Part shown: positions 243 through 14,329 of the stretch, piece by piece
How positions within the stretch are numbered: the first letter of the stretch is position 1
Layout of the letters: every line of letters starts with the position of its first letter
DNA from: Fastidiosibacter lacustris
GTDB lineage: Bacteria > Pseudomonadota > Gammaproteobacteria > Francisellales > Francisellaceae
Direction: 5' to 3'
DNA: 24,284 nucleotides
Assembly (NCBI RefSeq): GCF_003428155.1
Contig: NZ_QLIR01000024.1
Coordinates: 1-24,284 of the forward strand
Translations under genes and position numbers: made by a program
The notes under the pieces: model-generated
Told to the model about the DNA's origin: nothing
The model's database searches: none
Seen by the model: the letters and a program-made list of their open reading frames with translations, nothing else

Positions 243-2057
243 TTGTTAAACTATATGAAAAAAACGTTCTATAATATTCCAGCGACACGTTTATTGCCTA
301 GCAAATGGGATTTGTTTTCACTCTTTTTTGTATTGTCTATGATTTTTATTATTGCTTGGGTGTGTAGTAGCTTGGGTGGTAGTGTTGACTATCGTAATAT
401 TGATACTTTAGCTAAATATGAGCATGTTTCTATGAATTTGTGGAATTTGCCAAAGTATGCGGCAAATACAACTGTTCGAATGTTTATCGCACTTTTTTGT
501 TCATTCGTTTTTAGCTTTGTAATTGGGGCGTGGGCTGCTAAGAGTAAACGTGCTGAGGGCATTATTATTCCTATTATTGATATTTTACAATCCATTCCTA
601 TTTTGGGTTTTTTAGCGATCACGATTACAGGATTTTTAGCTATCTTTCCCTATTCTTTGTGGGGTGCTCAACTTGCTGTTATCTTTGGGTTATTCACTGC
701 TCAAGCTTGGAATATGATGCTAAGTTTCTATCAATCGTTAAAGACAATACCAAAGGAATTAAGAGAAGCTGCTGATATGTATCAGCTATCTGGATGGCAG
801 CGTTTTTGGAAATTGGAAGTACCTTTTTCTATGCCTGGTCTGATATGGAATACGATGATGTCAATGTCAGCCAGTTGGTTTATGATTGTAGCGTCTGAGA
901 GCATCGTTGTTAATTTTTCTCAAACGACTTCTGCTACCATTAATCTTCCAGGAATCGGCACTTTTATTGATCAAGCTAATAATGAACGTGATTTTAGTGC
1001 GGTTTTTTTAGCTATTATTGTAATGCTTGTGGTGATCATTTTATATGATCAACTGATTTTTAGACCAATTGTTAAATGGTCAGAAAAGTTTGTTGTTACA
1101 GAAATACAGCAAGAAATAGGATCCAATTCATGGTTTTTAAAACTATTGCAACGTTCAACAATTTTGCAAGGCTTTAGCCATTTTATGGCGTTACAAGCAA
1201 ATCGCATCGTCAATATTTCGTGGTTTAAAAAGGACTTAAATAAGAACTACAATCAGCTTAAGCATCAAAAAGATGATGGGAGTAATTCGCGTCTACAGGC
1301 GGCAATTTGGCAGTTGTGTGTCGCTGTTAGCATTGGTCTGTTCATTTATCTTGCATGGCAGTTTATCTATGGCAACAAGGAGGCACCCATTACATTTGCT
1401 GAAACTTTAAAAGTATTTGGATATGGGCTATTGACAGGGTTACGTGTATTTATATTAATAATCATTGCTTCAATTATCTGGGTGCCTATTGGTATTTGGA
1501 TTGGTTTGCGCCCAACTGTCGCTGAGAAAGTGCAGCCTTACGCTCAAATTTTTGCAGCTTTTCCAGTAAATGTGTTATACGGATTGTTTGGCACGGTGGT
1601 GATTGCATTTAATCTGAATTTTAATATTTGGTGTATATTGCTGATGGCATTAGGTACTCAATGGTATATTTTGTTTAACGTGATTGCTGGTGCTTCTGCT
1701 ATTCCACATGAACTTAAAATGGCTGCTAAAAATATGCAATTAAAAGGAACTGTAAAATGGTTTAAGTTCTTGTTTCCTGCTGTTATGCCTTTTTATGTAA
1801 CAGGTGCAATTACTGCTGCAGGTGGTGCCTGGAATGCAAGTATCGTTTGCGAATATATCAATTGGGGTAAAGATTCAGTGATTATGGCTTCAGGGATTGG
1901 TGCTTATATTTCTGAGCAATATAATGCACCAGGCGATCATACGGCAAATATTGCGCTAGGTGTGGTAGTAATGTGTGTTTTGGTAGTGCTTACAAATAAA
2001 TTGTTCTGGCGCAAACTTTATAATTACGCTGAAAAGCGTTTTAGTATGAATATGTAA
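243..2057 (+). CDS. ABC importer permease with two fused permease modules (TauC/SsuC/NrtB-like, duplicated-permease type)
   Basis: 604-aa ORF made almost entirely of hydrophobic helices. Two internal modules each carry an EAA-type cytoplasmic loop: PKELREAADMYQLSGWQRFWKLEVP in the first half and PHELKMAAKNMQLKGTVKWFKFLFP in the second. An ABC ATPase gene follows directly. The true start may be ATG 255 (MKKTFY...) rather than TTG 243. Confidence 0.85.
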   Translation: MLNYMKKTFYNIPATRLLPSKWDLFSLFFVLSMIFIIAWVCSSLGGSVDYRNIDTLAKYEHVSMNLWNLPKYAANTTVRMFIALFCSFVFSFVIGAWAAKSKRAEGIIIPIIDILQSIPILGFLAITITGFLAIFPYSLWGAQLAVIFGLFTAQAWNMMLSFYQSLKTIPKELREAADMYQLSGWQRFWKLEVPFSMPGLIWNTMMSMSASWFMIVASESIVVNFSQTTSATINLPGIGTFIDQANNERDFSAVFLAIIVMLVVIILYDQLIFRPIVKWSEKFVVTEIQQEIGSNSWFLKLLQRSTILQGFSHFMALQANRIVNISWFKKDLNKNYNQLKHQKDDGSNSRLQAAIWQLCVAVSIGLFIYLAWQFIYGNKEAPITFAETLKVFGYGLLTGLRVFILIIIASIIWVPIGIWIGLRPTVAEKVQPYAQIFAAFPVNVLYGLFGTVVIAFNLNFNIWCILLMALGTQWYILFNVIAGASAIPHELKMAAKNMQLKGTVKWFKFLFPAVMPFYVTGAITAAGGAWNASIVCEYINWGKDSVIMASGIGAYISEQYNAPGDHTANIALGVVVMCVLVVLTNKLFWRKLYNYAEKRFSMNM

Positions 2058-2107
2058 TTTGGCGTGAGAAAGAAGAAACGACTCTACTTAATAAATAAAG
2101 GATAATC

Positions 2108-3457
2108 ATGATTAATAACGATAGTATAGTATCGAAAGCTCACAATGTGAGCTCAAAGGAAATACAGCGTATATTATGTGTTGACAAGGTATCCAAAGCC
2201 TTTAAAAAACCTGATAAGCAAGATTTAATGGTACTTGAAGATGTCGATTTTACAATGAAAGAAGGTGAAATAATTGCTCTTCTAGGAAAGTCTGGCTCTG
2301 GTAAATCTACTTTGCTAAGAATCATTGCAGGACTGACTGCACCTACTACAGGGGAAGTAATTTATCGCGACAAAAAGGTATCAGGACCTGTTCCTAATGT
2401 GTCAATGGTTTTTCAAAGCTTTGCTTTGATGCCGTGGTTGACCGTATTGCAAAATGTAGAGTTAGGTCTAGAAGCACGTAATATCAGTGCCAGTGAGCGT
2501 AAAGAAAAAGCATTAAAAGCGATTGATATGATTGGTTTGGATGGTTTTGAAAACGCATATCCCAAAGAGCTATCAGGCGGGATGCGTCAGCGTGTGGGTT
2601 TTGCACGTGCGCTTGTATTGCAGCCAGACTTGTTGTTAATGGATGAGCCCTTCTCAGCACTTGATGTGTTAACGGCAGAAAATTTGCGTGAAGATTTATT
2701 GGAGTTATGGGAAAAAAATGATGCGATGAAGGGAATCTTATATGTTACTCATAATATTGAAGAGGCAGTGCTCACAGCGGATAGAATCATTATTTTTGGT
2801 AGTAATCCTGGCTTTATTCGAGGAGAACTTAAAGTTGACTTACCTCATCCAAGAAACTCTCAAGATGAGGCTGTCACCGATTTAATTGATGAAGTATACC
2901 GAATGATGACAACAGCAGAAACAAGAGAGCTAACTGAGCGCATGAATAAGCGTAAAGCACTTAATATTGGTTATCGATTGCCAGATGCTGAAGTTTCTGA
3001 GTTAACTGGATTATTGACTGAGATGGATGATTTACAAGCTAAAGGCTCAATCGACTTACCTGATTTGGCAGATCATGTGCGCTTAGATATTGATGATTTG
3101 TTTCCAATTATTGAAACTTTATCCGTACTTCATTTAGCTAGTGTATCAGATGGGGATATTACAATGACTACCTTGGGTAAACACTTTATGTCCGCAGATA
3201 TTGAGGAGCGTAAAGTGATCTTTTCTAAGCTTTTAGTGCAGCATATTCCATTGGCGCGTCATGTGATAAAAGTTTTAAAGGAACGCCCAAATAAAAAAGC
3301 GCCAGAATCACGTTTCTTATCTGAGCTTGAAGATTATTTAAGCGATGATGAAGCTGTACGTGTGTTTAATACCTTTATTAATTGGGCGCGTTATGCTGAG
3401 ATTGTTGAATACGACGCCGCAATAGGTATATTAAGCTTAGATGAAACCAATACCTAA
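2108..3457 (+). CDS. ABC transporter ATP-binding protein (nitrate/sulfonate/taurine-type NBD) with a C-terminal extension of about 190 aa
   Basis: Walker A GKSGSGKST, Q-loop FQSFALMPW, signature LSGGMRQRV, Walker B LLLMDEPFSALD, H-loop YVTHNIEEA. AAGGA lies 7 nt upstream of the ATG. Residues from about 260 to 449 extend beyond a normal NBD and have no motif I can name. Confidence 0.9.
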   Translation: MINNDSIVSKAHNVSSKEIQRILCVDKVSKAFKKPDKQDLMVLEDVDFTMKEGEIIALLGKSGSGKSTLLRIIAGLTAPTTGEVIYRDKKVSGPVPNVSMVFQSFALMPWLTVLQNVELGLEARNISASERKEKALKAIDMIGLDGFENAYPKELSGGMRQRVGFARALVLQPDLLLMDEPFSALDVLTAENLREDLLELWEKNDAMKGILYVTHNIEEAVLTADRIIIFGSNPGFIRGELKVDLPHPRNSQDEAVTDLIDEVYRMMTTAETRELTERMNKRKALNIGYRLPDAEVSELTGLLTEMDDLQAKGSIDLPDLADHVRLDIDDLFPIIETLSVLHLASVSDGDITMTTLGKHFMSADIEERKVIFSKLLVQHIPLARHVIKVLKERPNKKAPESRFLSELEDYLSDDEAVRVFNTFINWARYAEIVEYDAAIGILSLDETNT

Positions 3458-3783
3458 TAGGTATAAATGAATATAGAGTAATTAAGATGCTAGTGTGTAC
3501 TTATTTAAGTGGCTTTTGATACTAAAATTAAACAATAATCACTAACCATATCAATTGTCATACTGGATTATCACTCATGATGTATTTAAGGAATGGGGCA
3601 CTGAAAAGTGATCAAATCGTATGTTCAAGTTGAATGCAATGTGAAATTATCGTGCCTTGGATAGAAAATGGAACATTCAAAGCGGTATTAGATATGGGTT
3701 TTGACAATTTAGTGACATTTGATCATATAGGTCAATTTTATTTAGAACAATTGTTGGCTTCGTTATAATGTTGGGTAGTAATT

Positions 3784-5832
3784 TTGACAGAGTATTATAG
3801 CATTGATATTAAAAAACTATTTTCAGACGCTGGTTTGCACATGCGTGAAGCACAACTTCAGATGATTGAAGCTGTTAAAATAGCACTGGTTAATGATGAA
3901 AAAATTATAATTGAAGCCCCGACGGCAACAGGTAAGAGTTTTGCATATTTATTGGGTGCTCTGCTAGCTAACAAAATGCGATGTGAGCAAGGACATGAAA
4001 AACTTACCATTGTTCTATCAACAGCAACCGTGGCATTGCAAGAGCAATTAATGGATAAAGACTTACCGTTTATTCACAAGCTACTACAAGCACATGATTT
4101 AGCTTTTAGCTATCAGCTAGCAAAAGGGCGTTCACGTTATTTGTGTCCGCGGAAATTGCATAGCCATAGCTTAATAGAAACTGATTTAATTACCGAAGCA
4201 GAAAGTTTAGATAAGCGATTTCAAAAAGATTGGGATGGCGATTTTGATTTATTAGAGGAACCCCTTTCAAAAACACTGATGCAAGAGATATATAATACCA
4301 GTAGCTCATGCTCATTTACTCGTTGTGAATATTATCGCGAATGCCCGTTTTTGATAGCACGTCAAGGCTTAAAAAAAGTAGACATAATTGTTACTAACCA
4401 CAGTTTACTACTATCTCATTTAGATTTAGGAGATGGTTCGATTTTACCTAAATTTGAAAAGAGTATATACATAGTTGATGAATGCCATCATTTACCAGAT
4501 CGAGCGTTAAAGTCTTTGTCAGGTTTTGCATCATTATTGGGTTCTCACACTTGGATTAACGATGTTGATAAGTTATTAAATGCTTTACCAGCAGAACTTG
4601 CGGATAAAACTCGGCGTGAAAATTGGAAGCTTGTATGTACAAACCTCATTCAGCAACTCACCTATATGCAACAACTTATAGATCCACTTTATCGGCAAGC
4701 ACAAAAAGAAGAAACCGTGTGGCGTATCAAACATTTGGACGATGAAATGCTTAAGCTTGCAACAGAAATTAAAACTTCTGCGAGTTTCTATGTTATACAA
4801 TGTCAAAAACTTAAAGATGAGCTCGATAATTTTATTGAAAAAAATGAAATATATTCAGTAAGTAGTTTGGAAAAACAATTTACCCAAATGGGTTTTTTAT
4901 TGGAGCGTGCTCAAAATTTGCAGATGGTATGGTCATTGATGATAAACTCAGCCACTTCCCCACCGATTGCAAAGTGGGTTATTCCACATGATAAAAAAAT
5001 CAAGCAGGAAGAAATCCAAACGGATATATTGGCAACCAGTTTTCAAGATTATGATATTCATGCTTCACCAATTGAAGCAGCATCATTGCTGAAACAAGCA
5101 TTCTGGCAACACGTTCAACACGGGGTGGTATTGTGTTCTGCGACTGTACGCTCATTGGGGAAATTTGATCGATTTTTAAATGCTATAGCGCTTAAAAAAG
5201 AAGCAAAAACGCTGCTCTTGCCCTCACCATTAAATTATGAAAAATCAAAGATGATTATTCCTAATATGAAAAATGAACCAGTACAGCAAGAAAATCATAT
5301 TGATGAAACAGCAAAACTACTTAATGAACTCTATTTAAAGGACTTGCATGAAGGTGCTTTGGTATTGTTTACGAGTATCTATGCAATGGAAAAAGTCTAT
5401 ATGCGTCTTAGTGCTCAACTGAAAAAAATTACCTTAGTTCAAGGAGATCGCTCAAAGCAAGCAATGATTGCCATCCATAAAAAACGCATAGATGCTTTTA
5501 AACCTTCAGTTATTTTTGGTGTAGATAGTTTTTCAGAAGGAGTAGATTTGCCTGGTGCATATTTAACACGCTTAATTATTCATAAACTGCCATTTTCTGT
5601 GCCAACAAATCCGATTGATAAAACGCGCGCTGAGTGGTTAGAATCTATCAATCGCAAGCCATTTATGGATATATCCTTGCCGCAAGCTTCTTTAAAGCTT
5701 ACTCAAATGGTTGGTCGCTTAGTCCGCACTGAGTCGGATGTTGGTGAAGTGATTATTTTGGATAGGCGCTTAAAAACAAAATTTTATGGTAAAGCATTAT
5801 TAGATAATTTGCCACCTTTTCAAATTATTTAG
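3784..5832 (+). CDS. dinG: DinG/YoaA-family ATP-dependent DNA helicase (XPD-like SF2, Fe-S cluster type)
   Basis: Walker A APTATGKSFAYLL and DEAH-type box IVDECHHL. Four cysteines (CPRKL, then SSCSFTRCEYYRECPF) sit where the DinG/XPD 4Fe-4S domain lies. C-terminal motifs FGVDSFSEGVDLPG and QMVGRLVRT. TTG 3784 is the only in-frame start after the upstream TAA at 3766-3768. The N-terminal HMREAQLQMIEAV resembles the DinG/YoaA Q-region. Confidence 0.85.
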   Translation: MTEYYSIDIKKLFSDAGLHMREAQLQMIEAVKIALVNDEKIIIEAPTATGKSFAYLLGALLANKMRCEQGHEKLTIVLSTATVALQEQLMDKDLPFIHKLLQAHDLAFSYQLAKGRSRYLCPRKLHSHSLIETDLITEAESLDKRFQKDWDGDFDLLEEPLSKTLMQEIYNTSSSCSFTRCEYYRECPFLIARQGLKKVDIIVTNHSLLLSHLDLGDGSILPKFEKSIYIVDECHHLPDRALKSLSGFASLLGSHTWINDVDKLLNALPAELADKTRRENWKLVCTNLIQQLTYMQQLIDPLYRQAQKEETVWRIKHLDDEMLKLATEIKTSASFYVIQCQKLKDELDNFIEKNEIYSVSSLEKQFTQMGFLLERAQNLQMVWSLMINSATSPPIAKWVIPHDKKIKQEEIQTDILATSFQDYDIHASPIEAASLLKQAFWQHVQHGVVLCSATVRSLGKFDRFLNAIALKKEAKTLLLPSPLNYEKSKMIIPNMKNEPVQQENHIDETAKLLNELYLKDLHEGALVLFTSIYAMEKVYMRLSAQLKKITLVQGDRSKQAMIAIHKKRIDAFKPSVIFGVDSFSEGVDLPGAYLTRLIIHKLPFSVPTNPIDKTRAEWLESINRKPFMDISLPQASLKLTQMVGRLVRTESDVGEVIILDRRLKTKFYGKALLDNLPPFQII

Positions 5833-6107
5833 AAAAAGGATCGTTTGGATCAGTCTACTCATCCAAGAGCCATTTTTGTCTATTTCATAAAGCACCTCTT
5901 TTATTTAATTAGGATGTTTAATAGTCTAGTTTAGACCGGACAATTCATGTGTTCTTACTTAGGACATTTTATTTATTCTCTACAACTATTAAGACAGTTT
6001 GAGGTAGAGTAATAATTAGTTGTGACCTGCTTCACATAACTTGTTTTATTGATTATATTCATGTCGCTTTTTACATAGTTTTCCATAAACCAATAACTTT
6101 TAAATGC

Positions 6108-6117
6108 GATTACCCTG
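6108..6117 (+). repeat. Left copy of the 10-bp direct repeat GATTACCCTG flanking the low-GC island
   Basis: Exact 10-mer also present at 9981-9990. The upstream context partly matches: TTAAAtgcGATTACCCTG versus TTAAAactGATTACCCTG. Confidence 0.35.
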
Positions 6118-6203
6118 TAAAAGATATAGGGTCTTTGCTTGCGTGGTTGAGTATTAGGAAATATTATAGTAAATTAATTTTCAATTAGGAGGGATATCAC
6201 CGT

Positions 6204-7208
6204 ATGGATAGTATTGAATCAGTTCTTGAATTTTGGCAATTATGTGAATTATCTGATTTTAAAAGATTCAATTGTGCAAAAGAAAACGTCTCCCCTTTAG
6301 ACTTATCACAGATTAATAAATTTAAACAAATAGCTAATGAATATAGCAAATCGAATAACAAGGACTATAGAGTAAAAATAGACAATAAAACAACTAATAT
6401 ATATAAAGTTTATTTAGGACTTATCCAAGCAAAAGAAGCAATAAGATACGTTTACGATGCTTTTAAGAAAAGTGGTTTACTAGGCGAAGATATAGATATT
6501 ATTAATGCACTTGAAAAAGAGTTTGAGAAAATAAAGAAGCAAGATTGTACCTATCTAGCATACCTATATCTTGATCATAATTTGAATATAGTTTCAATTA
6601 AAGGTAATTGTTTTAATATAAATCCTATTTTTTATATATCAGCTATGCTACCTGATAAAAGTAAGTTAAATAATTTTGAACTGAATAACTTTGCAGAGGG
6701 ATATAGTGATGAGTTTAAAATAAAACATGAGGTGATCAATAGAAGCAATACTATTGTTATACCTGATGTTCAAAATCTTCTTAAGATTGGTCAGTATCCA
6801 AATGCTTTAAAGACATTATTATCATGTGATAAGTGTACACATCTATACATTTTTAACGAAACTATTAATGAAATACTTAACATTGCCAATACGTTATCTC
6901 ACCCATGTAGCAAGAATGCCTCTAATATCCTTGATGAAATATCCAAAGTAAAAAACAATCAGATTGAAGAACCTCGTCAATATCCTTATATATGTTTTGC
7001 AGAACGTCGAAGAGAACACTATGAACATTGTCATGAAGAATATTTATTAAACTCAGCAATTAAATTGCCATCGGAACAACCGTTTAGCTTTGTTTTTTTA
7101 TATACCAAGCATGAGTTGAGAAACTTTAGTATAAATCTTCCTATAAATTTATATTTAATCACGTGGTTTGATAAAGAGCTTTTCTATACACCACCGCTTG
7201 TTTCTTAA
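6204..7208 (+). CDS. Hypothetical protein, probably the N-terminal fragment of the downstream helicase reading frame
   Basis: 334-aa ORF with a strong AGGAGGG (6187-6193) upstream of ATG 6204. Very AT-rich, Asn/Lys/Ile-rich composition. No catalytic motif recognised. It ends at a TAA in the same frame as the helicase ORF that follows. Confidence 0.6.
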   Translation: MDSIESVLEFWQLCELSDFKRFNCAKENVSPLDLSQINKFKQIANEYSKSNNKDYRVKIDNKTTNIYKVYLGLIQAKEAIRYVYDAFKKSGLLGEDIDIINALEKEFEKIKKQDCTYLAYLYLDHNLNIVSIKGNCFNINPIFYISAMLPDKSKLNNFELNNFAEGYSDEFKIKHEVINRSNTIVIPDVQNLLKIGQYPNALKTLLSCDKCTHLYIFNETINEILNIANTLSHPCSKNASNILDEISKVKNNQIEEPRQYPYICFAERRREHYEHCHEEYLLNSAIKLPSEQPFSFVFLYTKHELRNFSINLPINLYLITWFDKELFYTPPLVS

Positions 7209-7421
7209 AATAAACCTGTAGATCAAAAAATTTTAGACTCAATATTTCGTCACATAAAAGACAGACTAAATATACCTGAAAATTTTTCATGTATTCAAAA
7301 ACCGTATTTTTTTGCTAAACGATATGAGAATCACAATATTAGACGTATTCATTCAATCGTTAAAACGAGCTTAACGAGTTACTATATTGATTCTCTTCGT
7401 GAAAGACTTAGTAAACTCTCA

Positions 7422-9815
7422 TTGCCATATATTATGGGGAAATCTCAGCGTATTGATGTGAATGATGGCAATATTAATACTAGAAAATCTATCAATGACC
7501 TTAAATATTTTAAACTTGTAAATAGTCGGTGGCCAAATAGTCATGCCCTTTACTATGCACAACAAGCAGCAGTAAACCTTTTTATCTCAAATCATAATAA
7601 ATCAAATGAGAACATATTTAGCATTAATGGTCCTCCAGGTACTGGGAAAACAACACTATTACAAGATGTTATTGCTTATATCGTAACTAAAAGAGTGGAA
7701 AATTATCTCAAGCGTGATGGTAAAATATTTGACAATAATTCTCTACGAGATGATATATGCGGAAAGTACGAGATATTAGTCACTTCTCACAATAATAGCG
7801 CCATTAAAAATATAACTGAGGACTTGCCTCAAGCTAAAAAGATAAACTTTGATTACCTTAAAGCTAGTAAAGAGGATTTTTTGCTTCACGATTGTGCAAA
7901 GAAATTCTATGACTCTATTATAACTAATAAAGAACAAAAGGATGAAGGCGAAGACAATAAAAAAGACGACCGTACATATTGGAGCTTCATTGCTTTAACA
8001 TTAGGAAAAAAGGATAACTTTACAAAATTTAAAACTGCCTTTCAATCTGTGCTTGACTATATTGAAGATGATAGAAACCTGCACAATGAAAGACTAAGAG
8101 ATCATCAGTATTTGACACATAGGATGGCTAGATTAAAAAGTGAATTCTTAGCTATAAAATCAGAAATTATAAGTATCAATAAATTATTTGAGCAACTATC
8201 AGGTCTGCACGAACTAGATAAGAAAATAAACACCCTACAAACTTCGATTAAAGATACTTCTAGCGGTATAGCATCATTGAAATCAGAAATTCAGAAGCAT
8301 AAGAGTAGAGCCGATGAGCTAAATGCAGAGAGTGTTTTTTTAAATGAACAGATTAAGATCACAAATCATCGCTTAGTGGTGAAAGAGACAGCGATAGGGA
8401 GTTTTGGTTTTTTTGCAAAAATTTTCAAAAATAGTGCGTTTAATAAACTTGTTCATGAAAAATCTTCTATAGCAGCAACACTAGACAATCATTTAAGCCA
8501 ACTGCATAAAGTAAATAGTGAAAATAAAGAAACCAAAAAGCAACTAGATGACTTGAGCAGCAAGCTAAGCCAAAATATATCTATTCAAAAGGCGAAAGGA
8601 AACGAGTGTCAAAAAATGATAAATCTTAAATCCTTTCTTCTCAAGAAAAGTGAGGATTGCAACATTAATAATGAGAACTATTATCGGCTTTGTGAAGAAA
8701 ATATACAAAAAAATAGCCTGTTTAATAAACCTAATTATCTTGAGAAAAAAGCACAGCTATTTAAGGTAAGTATCCAAATTAGTGAAGTTATTTTCTTGCT
8801 CAACATTGATAAATTTGCCAATGAAATAAAGTTTTACCATGATAATTATGCAAAAAGAGATTTGTGTAACTCCGATAAAATAAAACTACAAAAAGCTTTC
8901 TCTGCTATTTTTTATGTTTTTCCAGTTATATCAACCACGCTAGCATCATCTTATACGATGCTCCGCAATATATCTCAGTATGGTACTTTGCTATGTGATG
9001 AATCAGGTCAAGCCACCCCGCAATCTTTAATTGGTTCTTTAAATAGAGCAAATAATGCTTTAATTATTGGAGATCCACTGCAGATAAAACCCGTATTTAC
9101 AGCTCCAGAGATTGTAATAAAAATACTTCAAGAAAATTTTAATATTGATGATATATATTCACCTTTTGTATCATCAGCACAACAACTCGCAGATAATGCT
9201 AATATATATGGCTCATTTTATACTGTTGAAAATAAGAAAGTATGGGTTGGAATGCCGTTAGTTGTTCATACTCGCTGTGTAAATCCAATGTTTAACATAT
9301 CAAATACAATTTCGTATAATCAAAAAATGGTTCTAGCAACACCACCTATTAAGAGTGAGGATAAAATAAACTCCCTTCCTAAGAGTGGTTGGATTAATGT
9401 TTATTCAGAGACTGAAGACTTTAGAAATAACGGATCAACAAAAGAAGAAACTGAACTGTTCAATTTTATTGAGCTATATAAGGAAGAATTAGGAGAAGAA
9501 TACTTTATCATCTCGCCGTTTAATGCTATATATGATATTTCTTGTGGCTCACGTGAAAGTAAATTAGGGACTGTTCATACTTTTCAAGGACAGCAAAGTG
9601 ATGTCGTTTTTATAGTGCTTGGTGGAAAGAATCCAGGTTCCAACGCATGGGTTGCTTCAACAGCCAATATACTTAATGTTGCCATTACAAGGGCAAAAAA
9701 AAGAGCTTATATTTTTGGAGACTACAATGTATGGAAAAAGTATAATTATTTCAATGTTGCGGCAGACAATTTAAAACCAATTAACTATAAAAATAAAAGC
9801 CTTATAACATATTGA
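7422..9815 (+). CDS. Upf1/DNA2/NAM7-like superfamily 1B helicase (AAA_11/AAA_12 type) with a large coiled-coil insertion
   Basis: Q-like YYAQQAAVNLF; motif I INGPPGTGKTT (GPPGTGKTT at nt 7629-7655); Ia ILVTSHNNSAIKNI; II LLCDESGQ (DESGQ at nt 8997-9011); III LIIGDPLQIKPV; V VHTFQGQQSDVVFIVLG; VI LNVAITRAKKRAYIFGD. The frame is already open from 7209, 71 codons upstream of the first candidate start (TTG 7422, ATG 7434). Neither start has a Shine-Dalgarno sequence. Confidence 0.85.
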   Translation: MPYIMGKSQRIDVNDGNINTRKSINDLKYFKLVNSRWPNSHALYYAQQAAVNLFISNHNKSNENIFSINGPPGTGKTTLLQDVIAYIVTKRVENYLKRDGKIFDNNSLRDDICGKYEILVTSHNNSAIKNITEDLPQAKKINFDYLKASKEDFLLHDCAKKFYDSIITNKEQKDEGEDNKKDDRTYWSFIALTLGKKDNFTKFKTAFQSVLDYIEDDRNLHNERLRDHQYLTHRMARLKSEFLAIKSEIISINKLFEQLSGLHELDKKINTLQTSIKDTSSGIASLKSEIQKHKSRADELNAESVFLNEQIKITNHRLVVKETAIGSFGFFAKIFKNSAFNKLVHEKSSIAATLDNHLSQLHKVNSENKETKKQLDDLSSKLSQNISIQKAKGNECQKMINLKSFLLKKSEDCNINNENYYRLCEENIQKNSLFNKPNYLEKKAQLFKVSIQISEVIFLLNIDKFANEIKFYHDNYAKRDLCNSDKIKLQKAFSAIFYVFPVISTTLASSYTMLRNISQYGTLLCDESGQATPQSLIGSLNRANNALIIGDPLQIKPVFTAPEIVIKILQENFNIDDIYSPFVSSAQQLADNANIYGSFYTVENKKVWVGMPLVVHTRCVNPMFNISNTISYNQKMVLATPPIKSEDKINSLPKSGWINVYSETEDFRNNGSTKEETELFNFIELYKEELGEEYFIISPFNAIYDISCGSRESKLGTVHTFQGQQSDVVFIVLGGKNPGSNAWVASTANILNVAITRAKKRAYIFGDYNVWKKYNYFNVAADNLKPINYKNKSLITY

Positions 9816-9960
9816 AAACAGATTAGAAAAAGAGCAGTGTAAACTCAAACATAAGAATGGGAAAGCGTGAGTAAGTACCAACCTGCTTAATTAGAACATA
9901 TCCCCTTCCTTTAGAGATGGAGGGATGTCAATTGAGTGCACTTTATTCGATCTTAATTTA

Positions 9961-9989
9961 TTGACACAAACGTTAAAACTGATTACCCT
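9961..9989 (+). promoter_or_regulatory. Candidate sigma70-type promoter of the iscR-suf operon
   Basis: Consensus -35 TTGACA (9961-9966), a 17-nt spacer, and a weak -10 TACCCT (9984-9989), placed 30-60 nt upstream of the iscR start. Pattern match only. Confidence 0.25.
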
Positions 9990-9990
9990 G
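9981..9990 (+). repeat. Right copy of the 10-bp direct repeat GATTACCCTG flanking the low-GC island
   Basis: Exact match to 6108-6117. It lies about 30 nt upstream of the iscR start and overlaps a candidate promoter. Confidence 0.35.
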
Positions 9991-10019
9991 GGTGCAAATG
10001 ATACTAAGTTAGTCCTATT

Positions 10020-10457
10020 TTGATGTTAAAGGTCAGTAAACTTGCTGATTATGCGGTTATGACTGTGTTGAAAATTGCACAATCCCCACAGGCTTTACAT
10101 AGCGCAACCGATCTTGTGGCAGTGACGAGGCTTAACCTGCCAACCTTACGTAAGATTCTAAAAATATTAAGCAACAAGGGGATTTTACATGCCAAACGCG
10201 GTTCAGAGGGTGGTTATGAGTTAGTAAAAGATATCAAAACGTTATCCGTATTGGATGTGGTAGAAGCGATTGATGGGCAACTTGCTTTTACCGAATGCTG
10301 TGAGAAAGGATTTAAGTATTGTGCTGTGACTAATTGTCAAATGAGTAGTTACTGGCATGTGATTAATAAGAAAGTGCGTGAAACATTGAATGTATTTTCG
10401 ATACAAGAACTCATAAATAGAGAAATCAATAGCAAAGAGATTAAGCATTATGACTGA
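10020..10457 (+). CDS. iscR: Rrf2-family Fe-S-responsive transcriptional regulator (IscR-like)
   Basis: N-terminal Rrf2 winged-helix signature ([14 protein letters not shown]...[29 protein letters not shown]). Clustered Cys93/Cys94/Cys101/Cys106 plus His113 are candidate cluster ligands. The gene sits directly upstream of sufB and overlaps it by 8 nt. The likely start is ATG 10023 rather than TTG 10020. Confidence 0.85.
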
Positions 10458-11892
10458 TGACAAGATAAACAAAATAATCAATCAAGAATATAAGCATGGC
10501 TTTGTGACAAATATCGAACAAGAAACTTTTCGAGCAGGCCTTGACGAAGGTATTATTAGTCAAATTTCTGCACGTAAAAATGAGCCTGAATTTATGTTGC
10601 AATGGCGCTTGCAAGCATATCGTAAGTGGTTAAAAATGAAGGAGCCAACTTGGGCACACGTTAACTATGAACCCATTGATTATCAGTTAATTAGCTATTA
10701 CTCAGCACCAAAATTCAATAAAGATCAACCCAAAAGCTTGGATGAGGTGGATCCTGAGTTAATCGAAACTTATAACAAGCTAGGAATCCCTTTGCATGAG
10801 CAAGAAATGTTAGCAGGTGTTGCAGTGGATGCTGTTTTCGATTCGGTATCTGTTGTCACAACATTTAAAGAAAAGCTTGCTGAAGCAGGAGTGATATTTT
10901 GCCCTATTTCAGAAGCGCTAAAGAAGTATCCAGAAGTGGTGCAAAAATACATCGGTAGCGTTGTGCCACAAACTGATAATTATTTTGCTGCTTTAAATTC
11001 AGCTGTATTTAGTGATGGTTCCTTTGTTTATATTCCCAAAGGTGTACGCTGTCCGATGGAACTATCAACATATTTTAGAATCAATGCTTCTAATACGGGG
11101 CAATTTGAGCGTACGCTCATTATTGCGGATGAAGGCAGCTATGTCAGTTATTTAGAAGGCTGTACAGCACCTATGCGTGATGAGAATCAACTACATGCAG
11201 CAGTTGTTGAACTCATTGCACTTAAAGATGCAGAGATTAAATATTCTACAGTACAAAATTGGTATCCTGGTGATAAAGAAGGTAAGGGAGGCATTTACAA
11301 TTTTGTAACAAAACGTGGTCTATGCAAAGGGGAGAATGCAAAAATTTCATGGACACAAGTCGAAACTGGTTCATCAATCACTTGGAAATACCCATCGGTT
11401 ATTTTAAGAGGTGATAATAGTATCGGTGAGTTTTACTCAGTTGCGTTAACGCGTCATGCTCAGCAAGCCGATACGGGAACAAAAATGATTCATATGGGTA
11501 AAAATACCAAAAGCACGATTATCTCAAAAGGTATCTCAGCAGGATGCGCACAAAATACATATCGCGGGTTGGTGCGTACCTTGCCTGTTGCTGAAAATGC
11601 GCGAAATTTTTCACAATGTGATTCTCTTTTAATTGGTCATCAGTGTAGTGCGCATACTTATCCTTACATTGAAAATAAAAGCGAAACAGCGCAAATCGAG
11701 CATGAAGCAACGACTTCAAAAATCTCAGATGAACAGTTGTTTTACTGTCAACAGCGCGGCATAAGTAACGAAGATGCGGTGGCGATGATCGTTAATGGTT
11801 TTTGTAAAGACGTATTTAAGAAGTTACCACTGGAATTTGCGGTAGAAGCACAAAAATTGATAGAAGTTAGTCTAGAAGGGGCGATTGGCTAG
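10450..11892 (+). CDS. sufB: Fe-S cluster assembly scaffold protein SufB
   Basis: 480 aa. N-terminal EYKHGFVT matches the SufB YKYGF signature. The long beta-helix-type C-terminal region is collinear with SufB, and sufC and sufD follow. Confidence 0.95.
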
Positions 11893-11962
11893 TAGTGCTA
11901 ATATGCCAATAGTACTTGAAGTACTAAAGAGTTAAAAGAATAAGGTAGAACTGGTAAAAAAG

Positions 11963-12715
11963 ATGTTGTTAGAAATTAAAAACCTACATACAAAAGTTGA
12001 AAATAAAGCGATTTTAAAAGGTATTGACCTTAGGATCAATCCAGGTGAAGTACATGCGATTATGGGACCAAATGGTGCTGGTAAAAGTACGCTAGGTAAT
12101 ATACTAGCAGGAAAACCTGGTTATAAAGTAACAGAGGGAGAAGTGCTATTAGAGGGTAAGAACCTTTTGGAACTTGACGCATCTGAGCGTGCGCATGTAG
12201 GTGTATTTTTAAGCTTCCAGTATCCTGTTGAAATCCCAGGGGTAAGTAATACGCAATTCTTAAAGACAGCGGTTAATAGTATGCGTAAGGCACAAAACCA
12301 GTCTGAGCTTGATGCAATGAGTTTTATGAAAAAGCTGCGTGCAAATATGGAAATTCTAGAAATGGATCAAAAGTATATGAAACGTGGTGTTAATGATGGG
12401 TTTTCAGGTGGTGAAAAAAAGCGTAATGAGATGTTACAAATGATGATGTTAGAGCCAAAAATTTGTATTCTTGATGAGACGGATTCAGGACTTGACATTG
12501 ACGCTTTGCAGGTTGTATCAAAGGGTGCTAACCATATGCGTGATCAAAAGCGAGGATTTATTGTCATCACTCATTACCAGCGCCTATTAAACTATATAGT
12601 GCCAGATTTTGTTCATGTGCTCGCAGATGGCAAGATTGTAAAATCGGGCAATCGTTCGTTGGCATTAGAGCTTGAAGATAAAGGCTATGCTTGGATTAAT
12701 GAACAAGGAGTTTAA
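11963..12715 (+). CDS. sufC: Fe-S cluster assembly ATPase SufC
   Basis: 250 aa. Walker A GPNGAGKST, signature FSGGEKKRNE, Walker B ICILDETDSGLD, H-loop ITHYQRLL. Positioned between sufB and sufD. Confidence 0.95.
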   Translation: MLLEIKNLHTKVENKAILKGIDLRINPGEVHAIMGPNGAGKSTLGNILAGKPGYKVTEGEVLLEGKNLLELDASERAHVGVFLSFQYPVEIPGVSNTQFLKTAVNSMRKAQNQSELDAMSFMKKLRANMEILEMDQKYMKRGVNDGFSGGEKKRNEMLQMMMLEPKICILDETDSGLDIDALQVVSKGANHMRDQKRGFIVITHYQRLLNYIVPDFVHVLADGKIVKSGNRSLALELEDKGYAWINEQGV

Positions 12716-12717
12716 AA

Positions 12718-13977
12718 ATGTTAGTTTTAGAGAAGGCTTTAGAAGAGTTACCGTTTGTAGATAAAAATACAATTGCAAAGCGACAAAGTGCTTGGCAGGC
12801 TTTTAATGCGGCAGGCTTCCCAAGTAAAAAAAGTGAAGCGTGGCGCTATACTGATTTAAATGCCTTATATCAAAAATACAACATTAAAACCATCAAGTTA
12901 AGTCATAATAAAAATGCAGCTGAGTTTATGTCTTTGCTTAACCTGTATCCAGGTACTTATTATAATATTGTTTTTATTGATGGTACTTTAATTTACTTTG
13001 ATCAAGTTGAAGGGCTTGTTATTGAAAATATACTCACAAAAGAAAGTAAGTTGAACCTAGATGCAGAAGATGCTATAAATGCAATAGATTTACTTAATAT
13101 GTCGTCAACGATTGCAGGTGTTTACATTGAAGTTAAACAAGACATTAAATTAATTAAACCTATCCTTATTACTTATGCTCATAGTGATGGCAGTGCGGGG
13201 ATGTTGTTAAACTATCATAATCACATCAAAGTGGGTAAATCGGCACAATGCTTTATTCGTGAACATTACATTACATTTAGTCATGTTTTAACTGCAATCA
13301 ACGTTAAAACACAGCTTGACCTTGCAGAAGACGTGCATTATACATATGACGTATTGGCAAACATAACCATGCAAAGACTTTTGATCACAAATAGTATTTT
13401 TGTGAAGCTATATAAAAATTCTTACTATGAAACCTTTCAATTGTCATCACAATCGGCACTCAATCGTGTTGACTTTAATGTTGATTTGCTAGAAGAAGGC
13501 GCTGTTTTTAATGCAAAAGGTATTTATACTTTAGCGCAATCTGCACGAGCGGACTATCACTTTTATGTTAATCACCTGGCATCAAATACTCAAAGTGATG
13601 TATCATTTCGAGGTGTTGTTGGAGGTAAGGCATCCGCAACCTTTAATGCGAAGGCTTACGTGAATAAAGGATTGCATGGCATTAAAGCTTTTCAAAATAA
13701 CCGTAATATTCAACTAAGCAATAGTGCTGAAATAAATACCAAACCCGAACTTGAAATTTATTCGGATGATGTTATTTGTTCACATGGTGCAACGATTGGT
13801 TATTTAGATAATCAAGCGTTATTTTATTTAAAATCTCGTGGGATCCCAAACAATGATGCAATGACGCTTCTCATAGAGGGGTTTGCTAAAGAGCTAATTA
13901 CCCTTTTAGATCGAGATGAAGCTACATTGCAAGATTATATTGATAATTTTGAGGGTCATATCAAAAATTTGTTGTAG
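12718..13977 (+). CDS. sufD: Fe-S cluster assembly protein SufD
   Basis: 419 aa. N-terminal AWQAFNAAGFPSKKSEAWRYTDL is the typical SufD motif. C-terminal KPELEIYSDDVICSHGATIGYLD is shared with the SufB/SufD fold. AAGGAG lies 7 nt before the ATG. Confidence 0.9.
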   Translation: MLVLEKALEELPFVDKNTIAKRQSAWQAFNAAGFPSKKSEAWRYTDLNALYQKYNIKTIKLSHNKNAAEFMSLLNLYPGTYYNIVFIDGTLIYFDQVEGLVIENILTKESKLNLDAEDAINAIDLLNMSSTIAGVYIEVKQDIKLIKPILITYAHSDGSAGMLLNYHNHIKVGKSAQCFIREHYITFSHVLTAINVKTQLDLAEDVHYTYDVLANITMQRLLITNSIFVKLYKNSYYETFQLSSQSALNRVDFNVDLLEEGAVFNAKGIYTLAQSARADYHFYVNHLASNTQSDVSFRGVVGGKASATFNAKAYVNKGLHGIKAFQNNRNIQLSNSAEINTKPELEIYSDDVICSHGATIGYLDNQALFYLKSRGIPNNDAMTLLIEGFAKELITLLDRDEATLQDYIDNFEGHIKNLL

Positions 13978-14087
13978 AAGTTTATCTTTTAAGAACTACT
14001 TGCAAAATTCAGTATTGATTGAATTTTAGCTTAATCAAAACCTTTAATTTATATTAAGCTTATGCAGCTTTTAAATTTATTTTATTA

Positions 14088-14225
14088 CCTTGCAGTATAG
14101 ATTATGAGAAGGGAGGGAGAAAGTATACTGCAAGGCAATTTGCTTGGTCTCAAGGGTTTAGATCACAGGTCATACTGAAAGAGAAGGGAGAGAGAAGTAC
14201 TGCCCTATAATCGAATGCCCTTGAG
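14088..14225. ncRNA. Candidate structured small RNA: two adjacent hairpins, each displaying a purine-rich GGA-repeat motif (CsrA/RsmA-sponge-like). Strand undetermined.
   Basis: Perfect 12-bp stem CCTTGCAGTATA (14088-14099) / TATACTGCAAGG (14124-14135) with a 24-nt loop GATTATGAGAAGGGAGGGAGAAAG. Second 8-bp stem CTCAAGGG (14149-14156) / CCCTTGAG (14218-14225) encloses a near copy of the motif, GAGAAGGGAGAGAGAAGTACTGC (14181-14203). It lies in a 553-bp gap with no ORF. Confidence 0.25.
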
Positions 14226-14315
14226 TGAAGTCAGTATCACAAGCAAAAATTAAAATAAGCTTAAGGTAACCATAAATGTTGATAAAATTTTATAAAAAAT
14301 GAATTTTCTTTTTTG

Positions 14316-14329
14316 ATGTGATATCACAT
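14316..14329. promoter_or_regulatory. Perfect 14-bp palindrome ATGTGATATCACAT, a candidate operator upstream of the amino-acid permease
   Basis: Self-complementary 14-mer about 200 nt upstream of ATG 14531. Its right end overlaps the right arm of a second inverted repeat, AAATGAAT (14297-14304) / ATTCATTT (14328-14335). Confidence 0.25.

What the first reader, a model, noticed from the sequence alone, without database searches (positions are those of the whole stretch)
6204..9815. Low-GC insertion between dinG and iscR-sufBCD encodes a giant Upf1/DNA2-like helicase with an unknown N-terminal module: candidate stand-alone defence or anti-mobile-element system
Seen in the sequence:
- The segment sits between two housekeeping units, dinG and iscR-sufBCD.
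- It is clearly more AT-rich than its flanks. My hand counts of single 60-nt lines give 13, 19 and 20 G+C inside it (lines starting 6361, 8641, 9301). The lines at 4081 (dinG) and 11101 (sufB) give 24 and 26.
- It carries one long frame of 1202 sense codons with all SF1B motifs: GPPGTGKTT, DESGQ, GDPLQIKPV, TFQGQQSDVV, NVAITRAK.
- It also has about 400 N-terminal residues with no motif I can assign, and an insertion of about 370 aa between motifs Ia and II.
- No neighbouring gene explains a housekeeping role.

From established knowledge: large single-polypeptide Upf1-like SF1 helicases fused to an effector or sensor module are a recurring design in anti-phage and anti-plasmid systems, for example Nhi-type nuclease-helicases and the Mokosh helicase component.

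My inference: this protein shows no PLD/HKD motif or other known partner signature, so it may represent an undescribed variant. The defence role is not shown by the sequence.
Basis: partly seen in the sequence, partly recalled or inferred. Interest (0 to 1): 0.85.

Follow-up and report, generated by a model that had tools for sequence, protein, structure and literature searches.

The report
Broken Mokosh-like defence helicase gene
A strain-specific, horizontally acquired gene for a giant Upf1-type helicase sits between two housekeeping operons; it is related to the Mokosh anti-phage system but has a degenerate PIN-like module instead of the usual nuclease, and a stop codon cuts it in two, so it is probably a dead copy of a rare, untested defence gene.

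Summary
Window 6204-9815 (Fastidiosibacter lacustris) is one frame of 1202 sense codons with all the SF1B motifs, broken by a single TAA at 7206-7208. It is 30.6% GC against 35.1% for the rest of the window.

A second genome, 99.4-99.8% identical in both flanks, lacks the gene. There, window 6046-9808 is replaced by 519 bp of IS5-type and TnpB remnants. The gene is therefore accessory and sits in a variable, IS-scarred spot.

Sixteen intact homologues of 1110-1269 aa (33-44% identity) align end to end with the two window ORFs, so this copy is nonsense-disrupted.

The helicase, including its roughly 300-aa coiled-coil stalk, matches the PADLOC model for Mokosh type II MkoC (E 7e-62). The match covers only profile positions 159-949 of 1136. 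The C-terminal PLD nuclease that defines MkoC is absent, and no PLD gene lies anywhere in the window.

The "unknown" N-terminus is a conserved roughly 175-aa domain followed by a PIN-like fold. It is homologous (hhalign E 2e-23) to a sister protein with a bona fide PIN_4 domain, but its catalytic acidic residues are not conserved in this clade.

Homologues lie next to Avs4, CBASS Cap2/Cap3, Hachiman, integrases and ICE genes.

Verdict: a pseudogenised member of an uncharacterised, PLD-less variant of Mokosh type II. Defence is plausible but untested.

The parts
6046..9808 (+). Strain-specific segment of 3763 bp: promoter region plus the whole helicase frame. The conspecific genome GCA_024208055.1 has 519 bp of IS remnants here instead.
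   Evidence: blastn of window against L086: 146-6045 = 99.8% and 9809-19076 = 99.4% identical, nothing in between. Junction sequences read. GC 30.6% against 35.1% for the rest of the window.
6031..6059 (+). Promoter-like site (TTCACA-17-TATATT) that spans the left junction. It is a consensus match only.
   Evidence: The number of sites found does not exceed the shuffle expectation, so this is weak.
6187..6192 (+). Shine-Dalgarno sequence AGGAGG, 11 nt before the ATG at 6204.
   Evidence: Read directly from the sequence.
6204..6731 (+). N-terminal conserved domain (aa 1-176). It carries the motifs ILxFWxLCE, TYxAYxYLD and INPIFY, which hold most of the N-terminal module's invariant positions. 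Its fold and function are unassigned.
   Evidence: Alignments A1/A2 give the invariant residues W9, C12, E13, G70, T112, Y113, N136, P137, F139. It is shared with P0018. No Pfam, PDB or PHROG match. Boundaries mapped.
6732..7175 (+). PIN-like domain (aa 177-324) with a degenerate active site. At the four canonical acidic positions the window has D, E, E and a gap.
   Evidence: Foldseek of the N-terminal model finds Utp24, SMG6, SMG5 and Utp23 PIN domains at probability 0.98-1.0 but E 3e-3 to 3e-2. hhalign to P0018 gives E 2.2e-23, and P0018 residues 140-270 are Pfam PIN_4 at E 1e-10. The acidic positions are not conserved in the clade.
7206..7208 (+). In-frame TAA (codon 335) that splits the gene. 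It lies in a poorly conserved stretch just after the PIN-like domain.
   Evidence: Sixteen homologues read through this region as single polypeptides.
7209..7553 (+). Bridge region (aa 336-450) with the conserved S(F/Y)YID(A/S)L...DVN...RK.IN...W block that joins the N-module to the motor. The first canonical restart codons (TTG 7422, ATG 7434) lie after most of it and have no Shine-Dalgarno sequence.
7554..8012 (+). RecA1 domain, first part, with Walker A GPPGTGKTT (nt 7629) and motif Ia.
   Evidence: Pfam AAA_11, motifs, model of P0002, mapping.
8013..8918 (+). Insertion of about 300 aa inside RecA1: a long antiparallel coiled coil plus a helical bundle (the stalk).
   Evidence: AF2 model of homologue P0002 shows helices 585-617, 619-688, 695-768 and 796-858. 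A PDB profile search gives only coiled-coil look-alikes here. The MkoC profile aligns through it in one stretch.
8919..9770 (+). Rest of RecA1 (DESGQ at 8997, GDPLQ at 9069) and RecA2 (TFQGQQSDVV at 9579, NVAITRAK at 9675). All catalytic motifs are intact.
9806..9870 (+). Tail of a TnpB/OrfB_IS605 pseudogene (..IENRLEKEQCKLKHKNGKA*), shared with the other strain. The helicase's last codons and its TGA stop (9813-9815) lie inside this shared DNA.
   Evidence: Translations. Pfam OrfB_IS605 E 2e-5 (25.0 bits, below the family's 30.5-bit cut-off) on the longer L086 copy. Junction sequences.

Best explanation
The segment is a horizontally acquired, strain-specific single-gene cassette (own Shine-Dalgarno sequence, about 160 bp of upstream DNA, one ORF). 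It landed in an IS-scarred variable spot between dinG and iscR of Fastidiosibacter lacustris.

**What it encodes.** A member of a rare clade of about 1150-aa proteins built as:
1. a conserved N-terminal domain;
2. a PIN-like domain;
3. a bridge region;
4. an Upf1-like SF1B motor with a roughly 300-aa coiled-coil stalk inserted in RecA1.

The motor, stalk and bridge are homologous to the helicase part of Mokosh type II (MkoC). The C-terminal PLD nuclease of MkoC is missing, and the effector or sensor position is taken by the N-terminal module.

**Proposed working of intact members (inferred, not shown).** As in Mokosh, the ATP-driven 5'-3' motor engages phage or plasmid RNA, or single-stranded or R-loop replication intermediates. 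In the sister clade with an intact PIN_4 the fused nuclease would cut that nucleic acid. In this clade the PIN catalytic residues are not conserved. The module more likely binds or senses nucleic acid, and interference would come from translocation or remodelling, or from an unlinked partner.

**This copy.** A TAA at codon 335 separates the N-module from the motor, and no restart signal recovers the conserved bridge. This allele is most likely a recently inactivated pseudogene: all helicase motifs are still intact.
For: **Shown**
- One frame with a single stop.
- Colinearity of the two ORFs with 16 single-chain homologues of 1110-1269 aa, including the C-terminus.
- Absence from a genome 99.4-99.8% identical in the flanks, where IS5-type and TnpB remnants sit instead.
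- Lower GC at all codon positions.
- PADLOC MkoC E 6.7e-62 over profile positions 159-949 of 1136. Eight relatives likewise stop at about 945-951.
- Millman et al. define type II Mokosh as an N-terminal helicase plus a C-terminal PLD, both required for defence.
- Upf1-like fold of homologue P0002: pLDDT 83.7, best matches SETX, UPF1, IGHMBP2, DNA2.
- PIN link through Foldseek, hhalign and Pfam PIN_4 in P0018.
- Non-conservation of the PIN acidic residues in the clade.
- The N-module is found only in about 14 clusters among 1.84 billion representatives, nearly all about 1110-1180 aa proteins of this architecture, the rest shorter.
- Neighbours of homologues:
  - Avs4 at 1580 bits, directly upstream of P0010.
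  - CBASS E1-E2 and JAB near P0013.
  - Full Hachiman HamAB and a GajA/AriA-like ATPase directly upstream of P0018.
  - Abi_2, an integrase and an OLD nuclease in an ICE next to P0015.
  - PIN-TPR-GreABC in a transposon-like element (integrase plus DUF6262) next to P0005.

**Inferred**
- The defence role, the substrate and the non-catalytic role of the PIN-like domain.
Against: - No member of this clade, or of the wider PLD-less family, has been tested.
- The defining Mokosh nuclease is absent, and no nuclease active site is conserved in the clade, so a helicase-only mechanism has no characterised precedent in that system.
- Only eight homologue neighbourhoods were examined, not a statistical enrichment.
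- Two contexts place relatives just downstream of traG in F-type transfer regions, which also fits a transfer or establishment role: the Aliarcobacter ICE, and distant relatives on Klebsiella conjugative plasmids.
- In the window itself no defence or mobile-element gene is adjacent apart from the TnpB remnant.
- The stop codon rests on one draft assembly. Its reality cannot be checked without reads.
- The window protein deviates at 22 of 227 clade-conserved columns. This is the highest value but close to other lone lineages, so decay beyond the stop is not demonstrated.
- The structure models are of a 44%-identical homologue, and the PIN hits have weak E-values.
Confidence: 0.6

Rival explanations
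1. The gene is functional here. Either the TAA is an assembly or sequencing error, or the two halves (a 334-aa N-module and a motor restarted at TTG 7422 or ATG 7434) work as a two-protein system.
For: All helicase motifs are intact and there is no frameshift. RefSeq annotates two proteins rather than a pseudogene. The stop falls in a variable linker between domains. Splitting effector and helicase into two genes occurs in Mokosh type I.
Against: All 16 homologues are single chains. No separate N-module gene stands out among 1.84 billion representatives: the hits are full-length proteins plus a few shorter sequences. The restart codons have no Shine-Dalgarno sequence, and a restart would lose 72-76 residues including the nearly invariant S, Y, L and E of the SFYIDALxE block. 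A base-substitution error is uncommon in short-read assemblies (general knowledge, not checked here).
Confidence: 0.15
2. The family is not immunity but an accessory helicase of mobile elements, serving conjugative transfer, establishment of incoming DNA or anti-defence. The window copy would be a leftover of a decayed element.
For: The Aliarcobacter homologue lies about 2.9 kb downstream of traC-traU-trbC-traG in an ICE. Helicase-part relatives occur on 683 plasmids, 579 of them conjugative. In a Klebsiella IncFIB/IncHI1B plasmid the gene lies 1.6 kb downstream of traH-traG. Integrases flank several homologues. The window locus carries IS remnants.
Against: The positions are not conserved within transfer operons. 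Other homologues sit in chromosomal islands beside Avs4, CBASS parts or Hachiman with no transfer genes, or between housekeeping genes. The plasmid relatives lack the N-module and are only about 31% identical. Regions downstream of traG in ICEs are known cargo hotspots (general knowledge). The best profile match is a validated defence protein.
Confidence: 0.2
3. It is a housekeeping DNA-repair or RNA-quality-control helicase linked to its neighbour dinG.
For: It is adjacent to dinG on the same strand. The fold resembles Upf1, Sen1 and DNA2.
Against: It is absent from a 99.4-99.8% identical conspecific genome. Its composition deviates from the host. No NCBIfam family reaches its cut-off. The closest homologue is only 44% identical, and those with a named source are Aliarcobacter or metagenomes. 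The gene is disrupted here.
Confidence: 0.03

Closest known systems
Mokosh type II (MkoC; Millman et al. 2022)
   Same: Both are single large polypeptides with an Upf1-like SF1 motor (COG1112). The MkoC profile aligns in one stretch through the bridge, RecA1, the coiled-coil insertion and RecA2 (window aa 345-1179 against profile 159-949, E 6.7e-62). Homologues are mobile or defence-island associated.
   Different: The C-terminal PLD nuclease (profile positions about 950-1136), which is required for Mokosh defence, is absent. There is no HxKxxxxD motif and no PLD gene in the window. The N-terminal 344 residues do not align with MkoC and form a different module. The score of about 208 bits covers about 70% of the profile.
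Uncharacterised PIN_4-helicase proteins (P0018, 1283 aa, metagenomic)
   Same: The N-module is colinear and homologous (hhalign probability 99.5%, E 2.2e-23 over about 400 residues), and so is the motor (E 1e-96). The NTD and bridge motifs are shared. P0018 sits directly after a complete Hachiman system.
   Different: P0018 keeps all four PIN acidic residues and passes the Pfam PIN_4 threshold. The window's clade does not. P0018 itself has no experimental characterisation.
Eukaryotic Upf1-like helicases (UPF1, SETX/Sen1, IGHMBP2, DNA2) and the UPF1-SMG6 pairing
   Same: The RecA1/RecA2 core has insertions in RecA1 and gives the best structural matches. A PIN endonuclease (SMG6) working with an Upf1 motor is the logic of nonsense-mediated decay (established knowledge). 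SMG6 and SMG5 PIN domains are among the structural hits of the N-module.
   Different: Here the PIN-like fold is fused in cis, N-terminal, and degenerate. The stalk is a roughly 300-aa coiled coil rather than domains 1B/1C. No CH or other regulatory domains are present. Sequence identity to the matched structures is 11-19%.
PhoH2 (PIN_4 fused to a PhoH ATPase/RNA helicase)
   Same: The architecture idea is the same: an N-terminal PIN_4-type domain followed by a P-loop RNA helicase (from my own knowledge, not tested here).
   Different: The motor family is different (PhoH, not Upf1-like). PhoH2 is much smaller and has no coiled-coil stalk. Pfam PhoH gave no hit on the window protein.
Nhi and Mokosh type I MkoA
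   Same: Both are SF1 helicases used in defence. Weak PADLOC MkoA hits (E 3e-18 and 3e-15) are restricted to helicase motifs.
   Different: There is no Nhi hit for the window protein. There is no serine-threonine kinase domain and no MkoB partner gene.

Membership tests
Upf1-like SF1B helicases | Motifs I, Ia, II, III, V and VI in the canonical order | tested here: met
   GPPGTGKTT, VTSHNN, DESGQ, GDPLQ, TFQGQQSDVV and NVAITRAK are present. Pfam AAA_11 E 6e-17 and AAA_12 E 1e-7.
Upf1-like SF1B helicases | Two RecA domains with accessory insertions in RecA1, and structural similarity to Upf1, Sen1 or IGHMBP2 | tested here: met
   Tested on the model of the 44%-identical homologue P0002 (pLDDT 83.7). 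Foldseek finds SETX at E 1e-13, UPF1 at 2e-10 and IGHMBP2 at 6e-10. The window protein itself was not modelled.
Mokosh type II (MkoC) | COG1112/Upf1-like helicase with a functional Walker A motif | tested here: met
   PADLOC PDLC03924 E 6.7e-62 over the helicase part. The Walker A motif is intact.
Mokosh type II (MkoC) | C-terminal PLD-family nuclease domain with an HxKxxxxD motif, in the same polypeptide | tested here: not met
   Profile positions 950-1136 are unmatched in the window protein and in 8 relatives. There is no Pfam PLD hit and no H.K....D string. The protein ends 38 residues after motif VI.
Mokosh type II (MkoC) | Protection against phage that depends on both the ATPase and the nuclease | not testable with these tools
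   This needs a plaque assay.
Mokosh type I (MkoA + MkoB) | Helicase with a serine-threonine kinase domain plus a separate PLD gene | tested here: not met
   There is no kinase domain and no PLD gene in any window ORF. The MkoA hits cover only helicase motifs.
PIN domain-like superfamily | Three-layer alpha/beta/alpha PIN fold | tested here: inconclusive
PIN domain-like superfamily | Conserved acidic residues (D, E, D, D) that bind the catalytic metal | tested here: not met
   In the alignment with P0018, position 1 is D, E or S. Position 2 is variable. Position 3 is mostly D or E. Position 4 is deleted or is N or D. The window has D, E, E and a gap.
Defence-island genes (guilt by association) | Recurrent placement next to known defence systems, in variable regions | tested here: inconclusive
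   Homologues lie beside Avs4, CBASS E1-E2/JAB, Hachiman, Abi_2/OLD and PIN-TPR-GreABC. Only 8 neighbourhoods were examined, with no statistics. In the window itself the neighbours are housekeeping genes plus a TnpB remnant. The locus is variable between two strains.
Nhi (nuclease-helicase immunity) | Match to the Nhi nuclease-helicase profile | tested here: not met
   No PADLOC Nhi hit for the window protein at E <= 0.01.

The most novel reading that the evidence does not exclude
Intact members of this clade, together with the PIN_4-bearing sister clade, would form an undescribed single-gene immune system. It would be a Mokosh-II-type Upf1-like motor in which the C-terminal PLD effector has been exchanged for an N-terminal module (a conserved unknown domain plus PIN). 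In the window's clade the PIN active site has decayed. Protection would then work without a nuclease in cis, through motor-driven remodelling of invader RNA or replication intermediates, or through the conserved roughly 175-aa N-terminal domain acting as a new sensor or effector.
Probability: 0.3. Interest if true: 0.65.

Novelty: new variant of a known kind. Interest (0 to 1): 0.45.

Why it matters
- **Annotation risk.** Mokosh is common, but in the papers read here its mechanism is still only hypothesised. All nine family members tested match the MkoC model without the nuclease, and 683 plasmids carry relatives of the helicase part. Profile-based annotation could count such proteins as Mokosh type II although the defining effector is missing.
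- **Effector exchange.** The clade found here, and its PIN_4 sister beside Hachiman, suggest that effectors are exchanged on one motor-and-stalk chassis (C-terminal PLD against N-terminal PIN). That gives a natural experiment on what the helicase senses and whether a nuclease is needed at all.
- **This genome.** The practical message is modest. The dinG-iscR spacer is a strain-variable, IS-scarred spot that holds a dead defence-type gene.

Tried and rejected
**Searches that gave little or nothing**
- The single genome-contig scan, run with DinG to compare the locus across relatives, returned only hits of 35% identity or less from unrelated phyla. The useful comparison came instead from the cluster look-up and an exact-protein look-up.
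- The search for homologous proteins with the N-terminal alignment A2 returned nothing, perhaps because low-complexity, AT-rich candidates filled the list. The exhaustive phmmer search stands in for it.
- A metagenome scan for the left-junction 27-mer found nothing.
- Literature searches for PIN plus Upf1-like defence proteins found nothing relevant.

**Ideas considered and rejected**
- Terminal direct or inverted repeats and target-site duplications at 6046/9808: only short matches of the size chance would give.
- tRNA or Rfam elements as integration sites: none in the window.
- A shared upstream partner gene: the 1518-aa (L003) and 1511-aa (L089) upstream proteins are unrelated. One is Avs4; the other is a PIN-TPR-GreABC protein.
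- N-module homology to the wider family: no similarity to P0025, and only an insignificant trace to P0116.
- Extra decay of the pseudogene: not demonstrable.
- The 10-nt GATTACCCTG shared upstream of the helicase and of iscR (family D9): judged a chance match.

Full report
**1. What is in the sequence**

The window is a whole 24,284-bp contig of Fastidiosibacter lacustris (Thiotrichales), identified from exact protein look-ups.

- The frame 6204-9815 on the + strand translates into 1202 sense codons with one internal stop, TAA at 7206-7208.
- The mechanical ORF list, and RefSeq, therefore show two genes: a 334-aa "hypothetical protein" and a 797-aa "AAA domain-containing protein".
- The frame lies between DinG (3784-5832) and Rrf2/IscR-SufB-SufC-SufD (10020-13977).
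- No other ORF of the window encodes a PLD or any other defence-type protein.
- The segment is 30.6% GC against 35.1% for the rest (500-nt windows, Mann-Whitney p = 6e-4). It is below every other + strand gene at each codon position. The difference is real but moderate.
- A good Shine-Dalgarno sequence (AGGAGG, 6187-6192) precedes the ATG.

**2. The gene is accessory and the locus is a variable, IS-scarred spot**

A second genome (GCA_024208055.1, locus L086) carries the same gene order. Compared with the window:

| Window coordinates | L086 |
|---|---|
| 146-6045 | 99.8% identical |
| 6046-9808 (3763 bp) | absent; 519 bp of other sequence instead |
| 9809-19076 | 99.4% identical |

- Those 519 bp encode the C-terminal end of an IS4/IS5-type DDE transposase (Pfam DDE_Tnp_1, E 6e-6) and a fragment of a TnpB/OrfB_IS605 gene (E 2e-5).
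- The tail of that TnpB fragment is also present in the window (about 9806-9870). The last codons and the TGA stop of the helicase lie inside this shared DNA.
- The event is therefore a replacement, not a clean insertion, and its direction cannot be decided from two genomes.
- There are no terminal repeats, tRNA genes or Rfam elements at the borders.
- SNP density differs across the spot: 10 in 5900 nt on the left, 60 in 9268 nt on the right. This would fit a recombination breakpoint there.
The one conspecific genome available gives the opposite result.

**3. This copy is broken**

- In the multiple alignment the two window ORFs are colinear with these single chains from the first residue to the C-terminus. 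The TAA falls in a poorly conserved stretch just after the PIN-like domain.
- The first canonical in-frame restart codons (TTG 7422, ATG 7434) have no Shine-Dalgarno sequence. A restart there would drop 72-76 residues, including the nearly invariant positions of the S(F/Y)YID(A/S)LxE block.
- In an exhaustive search of 1.84 billion representatives, the N-module hits are full-length proteins plus a few shorter sequences.
- All catalytic helicase motifs are intact.
- The window sequence deviates from clade-conserved columns (22 of 227) only slightly more than other lone lineages. If the stop is real, inactivation is recent.
- Whether the TAA is real cannot be checked without reads.

**4. The motor**

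- Pfam finds AAA_11, split over aa 453-965, and AAA_12.
- No NCBIfam model reaches its cut-off.
- A profile of the family hits Sen1, IGHMBP2 and UPF1 among solved structures.
- An AlphaFold2 model of the closest intact homologue, P0002, has pLDDT 83.7 and pTM 0.72.
- Its best Foldseek matches are SETX, UPF1, Aquarius, IGHMBP2, Sen1, DNA2, ZNFX1 and nsp13. This is an Upf1-like SF1B helicase.
- The insertion between motifs Ia and II is a long antiparallel coiled coil (helices 585-617, 619-688, 695-768) followed by a helical bundle. It maps to window aa 604-905.

**5. Relation to Mokosh**

- The only strong PADLOC hit is MkoC, the single protein of Mokosh type II. The E-value is 6.7e-62, with window aa 345-1179 aligned in one stretch to profile positions 159-949 of 1136.
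[quoted passage not shown] A later preprint reports the type II protein as a monomer with narrow specificity.
- The window protein ends 38 residues after motif VI, has no HxKxxxxD string and no Pfam PLD hit.
- Eight other family members likewise match the profile only up to about position 945-951, at 180-234 bits.
- The defining nuclease is therefore tested and absent. The protein should not be filed as Mokosh type II, although its bridge, motor and stalk are clearly homologous to MkoC.
- Helicase-part relatives (about 31% identity, lacking the N-module) occur on 683 plasmids, 579 of them conjugative.

**6. The N-terminal 400 residues**

- No sequence library recognises them.
- The module is rare. 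Among 1.84 billion representatives only about 14 clusters carry it, nearly all as proteins of about 1110-1180 aa with this architecture, the rest shorter.
- A model of P0002 residues 1-425 (pLDDT 78, pTM 0.77) gives PIN-domain nucleases as its best and repeated structural matches: Utp24/Fcf1, SMG6, SMG5, Utp23 and AF0591. Probability is 0.98-1.0, but E-values are weak (3e-3 to 3e-2) over about 105-130 columns.
- Independent support comes from a distant relative, P0018 (1283 aa).
  - Its residues 140-270 pass Pfam PIN_4 (E 1e-10).
  - Its whole N-terminus aligns colinearly with the clade's N-terminal profile (hhalign probability 99.5%, E 2.2e-23).
- P0018 has all four canonical acidic residues (IPDTS, KELD, NDEL, STDKN). 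In the window's clade these positions are not conserved:

| PIN acidic position | Window's clade | Window |
|---|---|---|
| 1 | D, E or S | D |
| 2 | variable | E |
| 3 | mostly D or E | E |
| 4 | deleted, or N or D | gap |

- The second half of the N-module (window aa about 177-324) is therefore a PIN-like fold that is very probably not a conserved nuclease.

**7. Neighbourhoods of homologues**

No partner gene is conserved. The contexts are mobile or defensive:

| Homologue | Neighbourhood |
|---|---|
| P0010 | Directly downstream of a full Avs4 (1580 bits) and two integrases |
| P0013 | Near CBASS-type E1-E2 and JAB genes and an integrase |
| P0005 | After a PIN-TPR-GreABC pair in a transposon-like element (integrase plus DUF6262) |
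| P0015 (Aliarcobacter lanthieri) | In an ICE, downstream of traC-traU-trbC-traG and upstream of Abi_2, an integrase, SbcCD and an OLD-type nuclease |
| P0012 | Between housekeeping genes, with HepT/MNT and a DUF5906 protein nearby |
| P0008 | Beside many small ORFs and a reverse transcriptase |
| P0018 (PIN_4 sister) | Directly after a complete Hachiman system (HamA 352 bits, HamB 894 bits) and a GajA/AriA-like ATPase with DUF2779 |

This is the usual kind of evidence for a defence gene. It rests on eight neighbourhoods, without statistics.

**8. Mechanism: what is shown and what is inferred**

Shown:
- the architecture;
- homology of the motor and stalk to MkoC;
- absence of PLD;
- the PIN-like fold with a non-conserved active site;
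- accessory status;
- disruption of this copy.

Inferred:
- Intact proteins act as single-chain immune or anti-mobile-element factors.
- The 5'-3' Upf1-type motor engages invader RNA or single-stranded replication intermediates, as hypothesised for Mokosh.
- In the PIN_4 sister clade the fused nuclease would cut the substrate.
- In this clade the degenerate PIN and the conserved N-terminal domain more likely bind or sense. The effect would come from ATP-driven remodelling or from an unlinked partner.

Confidence is high for identity and accessory status, about 0.75 for the pseudogene, and about 0.5-0.6 for a defence role of the family.

**9. Rivals**

- **Functional here (0.15).** The TAA may be an assembly error, or the gene may be functionally split. 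The evidence is given in section 3.
- **Mobile-element accessory function rather than immunity (0.2).**
  - For: the position downstream of traG in the Aliarcobacter ICE, and of distant relatives in Klebsiella IncFIB/IncHI1B plasmids.
  - Against: such regions are also cargo hotspots, and other homologues have no transfer genes nearby.
- **Housekeeping role next to dinG.** This is excluded by the presence/absence polymorphism.

**10. Verdict**

The gene is a new variant of a known kind: a Mokosh-II-related helicase with PLD lost and an N-terminal PIN-type module gained.
- In this genome it is most likely a dead copy, and no function has been tested for any member.
- Interest is moderate. The case is useful mainly as a pointer to a widespread PLD-less MkoC-like family, and to an effector-swap series that could help explain what Mokosh helicases sense.

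Noticed in passing
window 1-145; L086 5543-6305: The first 145 nt of the contig do not match the otherwise 99.8% identical genome. That genome has an IS1-type transposase fragment (HTH_Tnp_IS1, 98 aa) just upstream. This looks like a second strain-variable junction, or a contig break at a repeat.
   Followed up: partly
window 146-6045 versus 9809-19076 (against L086): SNP density is about four times higher to the right of the variable spot (60 in 9268 nt, dense over sufB-sufD) than to the left (10 in 5900 nt). That would fit a recombination boundary at the dinG-iscR spacer.
   Followed up: partly
L086 12206-12724: In the other strain the spacer holds two transposase relics back to back. One is an IS4/IS5-type DDE C-terminus interrupted by a stop (..VVERSFA*LEKCRRLWKNCERK..). 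The other is an internally truncated TnpB fragment.
   Followed up: yes
L003 2788-7344 and 7365-10913: A full-length Avs4 (PADLOC 1580 bits) lies 20 bp upstream of the helicase homologue P0010, behind two integrases. This may be a two-gene mobile defence cassette.
   Followed up: partly
L092 1666-11852: A compact defence island: a complete Hachiman system (HamA, HamB), a GajA/AriA/NsnB-like ABC ATPase with a DUF2779 protein (no PADLOC model for the latter), then the PIN_4-helicase P0018.
   Followed up: partly
L088 1473-7940 / L089 1477-7940: A DUF676-PIN-TPR-GreABC protein plus a permuted GreAB-C protein sit directly upstream of homologue P0005, in a transposon-like element (integrase plus DUF6262). 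In one assembly the first protein is split in two (833 + 688 aa); in the other it is fused (1511 aa).
   Followed up: no
L091 (Klebsiella pneumoniae plasmid NZ_CP095649.1 189878-192772): A 964-aa PLD-less MkoC-like helicase lies 1.6 kb downstream of traH-traG. Relatives are found on 683 plasmids, 548 of them Klebsiella and 579 conjugative. They are annotated only as DEAD/DEAH box helicase or AAA domain-containing protein.
   Followed up: partly
window 21317-22531 and 22541-23677 (- strand): Two adjacent paralogous PAS_4 proteins. The upstream one (22541-23677) has HisKA and HATPase_c domains. The downstream one has no detectable kinase domain. GC3 of these minus-strand genes (0.42-0.44) is well above that of the + strand genes (0.26-0.37).
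   Followed up: no
window 13978-14530: The suf cluster stops after sufD. A 550-nt AT-rich gap (28% GC) is followed by an amino-acid permease, and no sufS or sufE is in the window. Downstream, 16232-19830 encodes an arginine-decarboxylase-type enzyme, an agmatine-deiminase-type protein (PAD_porph) and a CN_hydrolase, which looks like a putrescine pathway.
   Followed up: no
window 6100-6117 and 9973-9990: An 18-nt stretch, 83% identical (core GATTACCCTG), occurs upstream of both the helicase and iscR. I judged it a chance match for this length of AT-rich DNA.
   Followed up: partly
tool behaviour: A profile search with the N-terminal alignment returned no hit at all, although its own members are in the database. 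The 8000-candidate word filter may have been filled by low-complexity, N/K/I-rich proteins. Negative results for AT-rich queries from this tool should be read with care.
   Followed up: no
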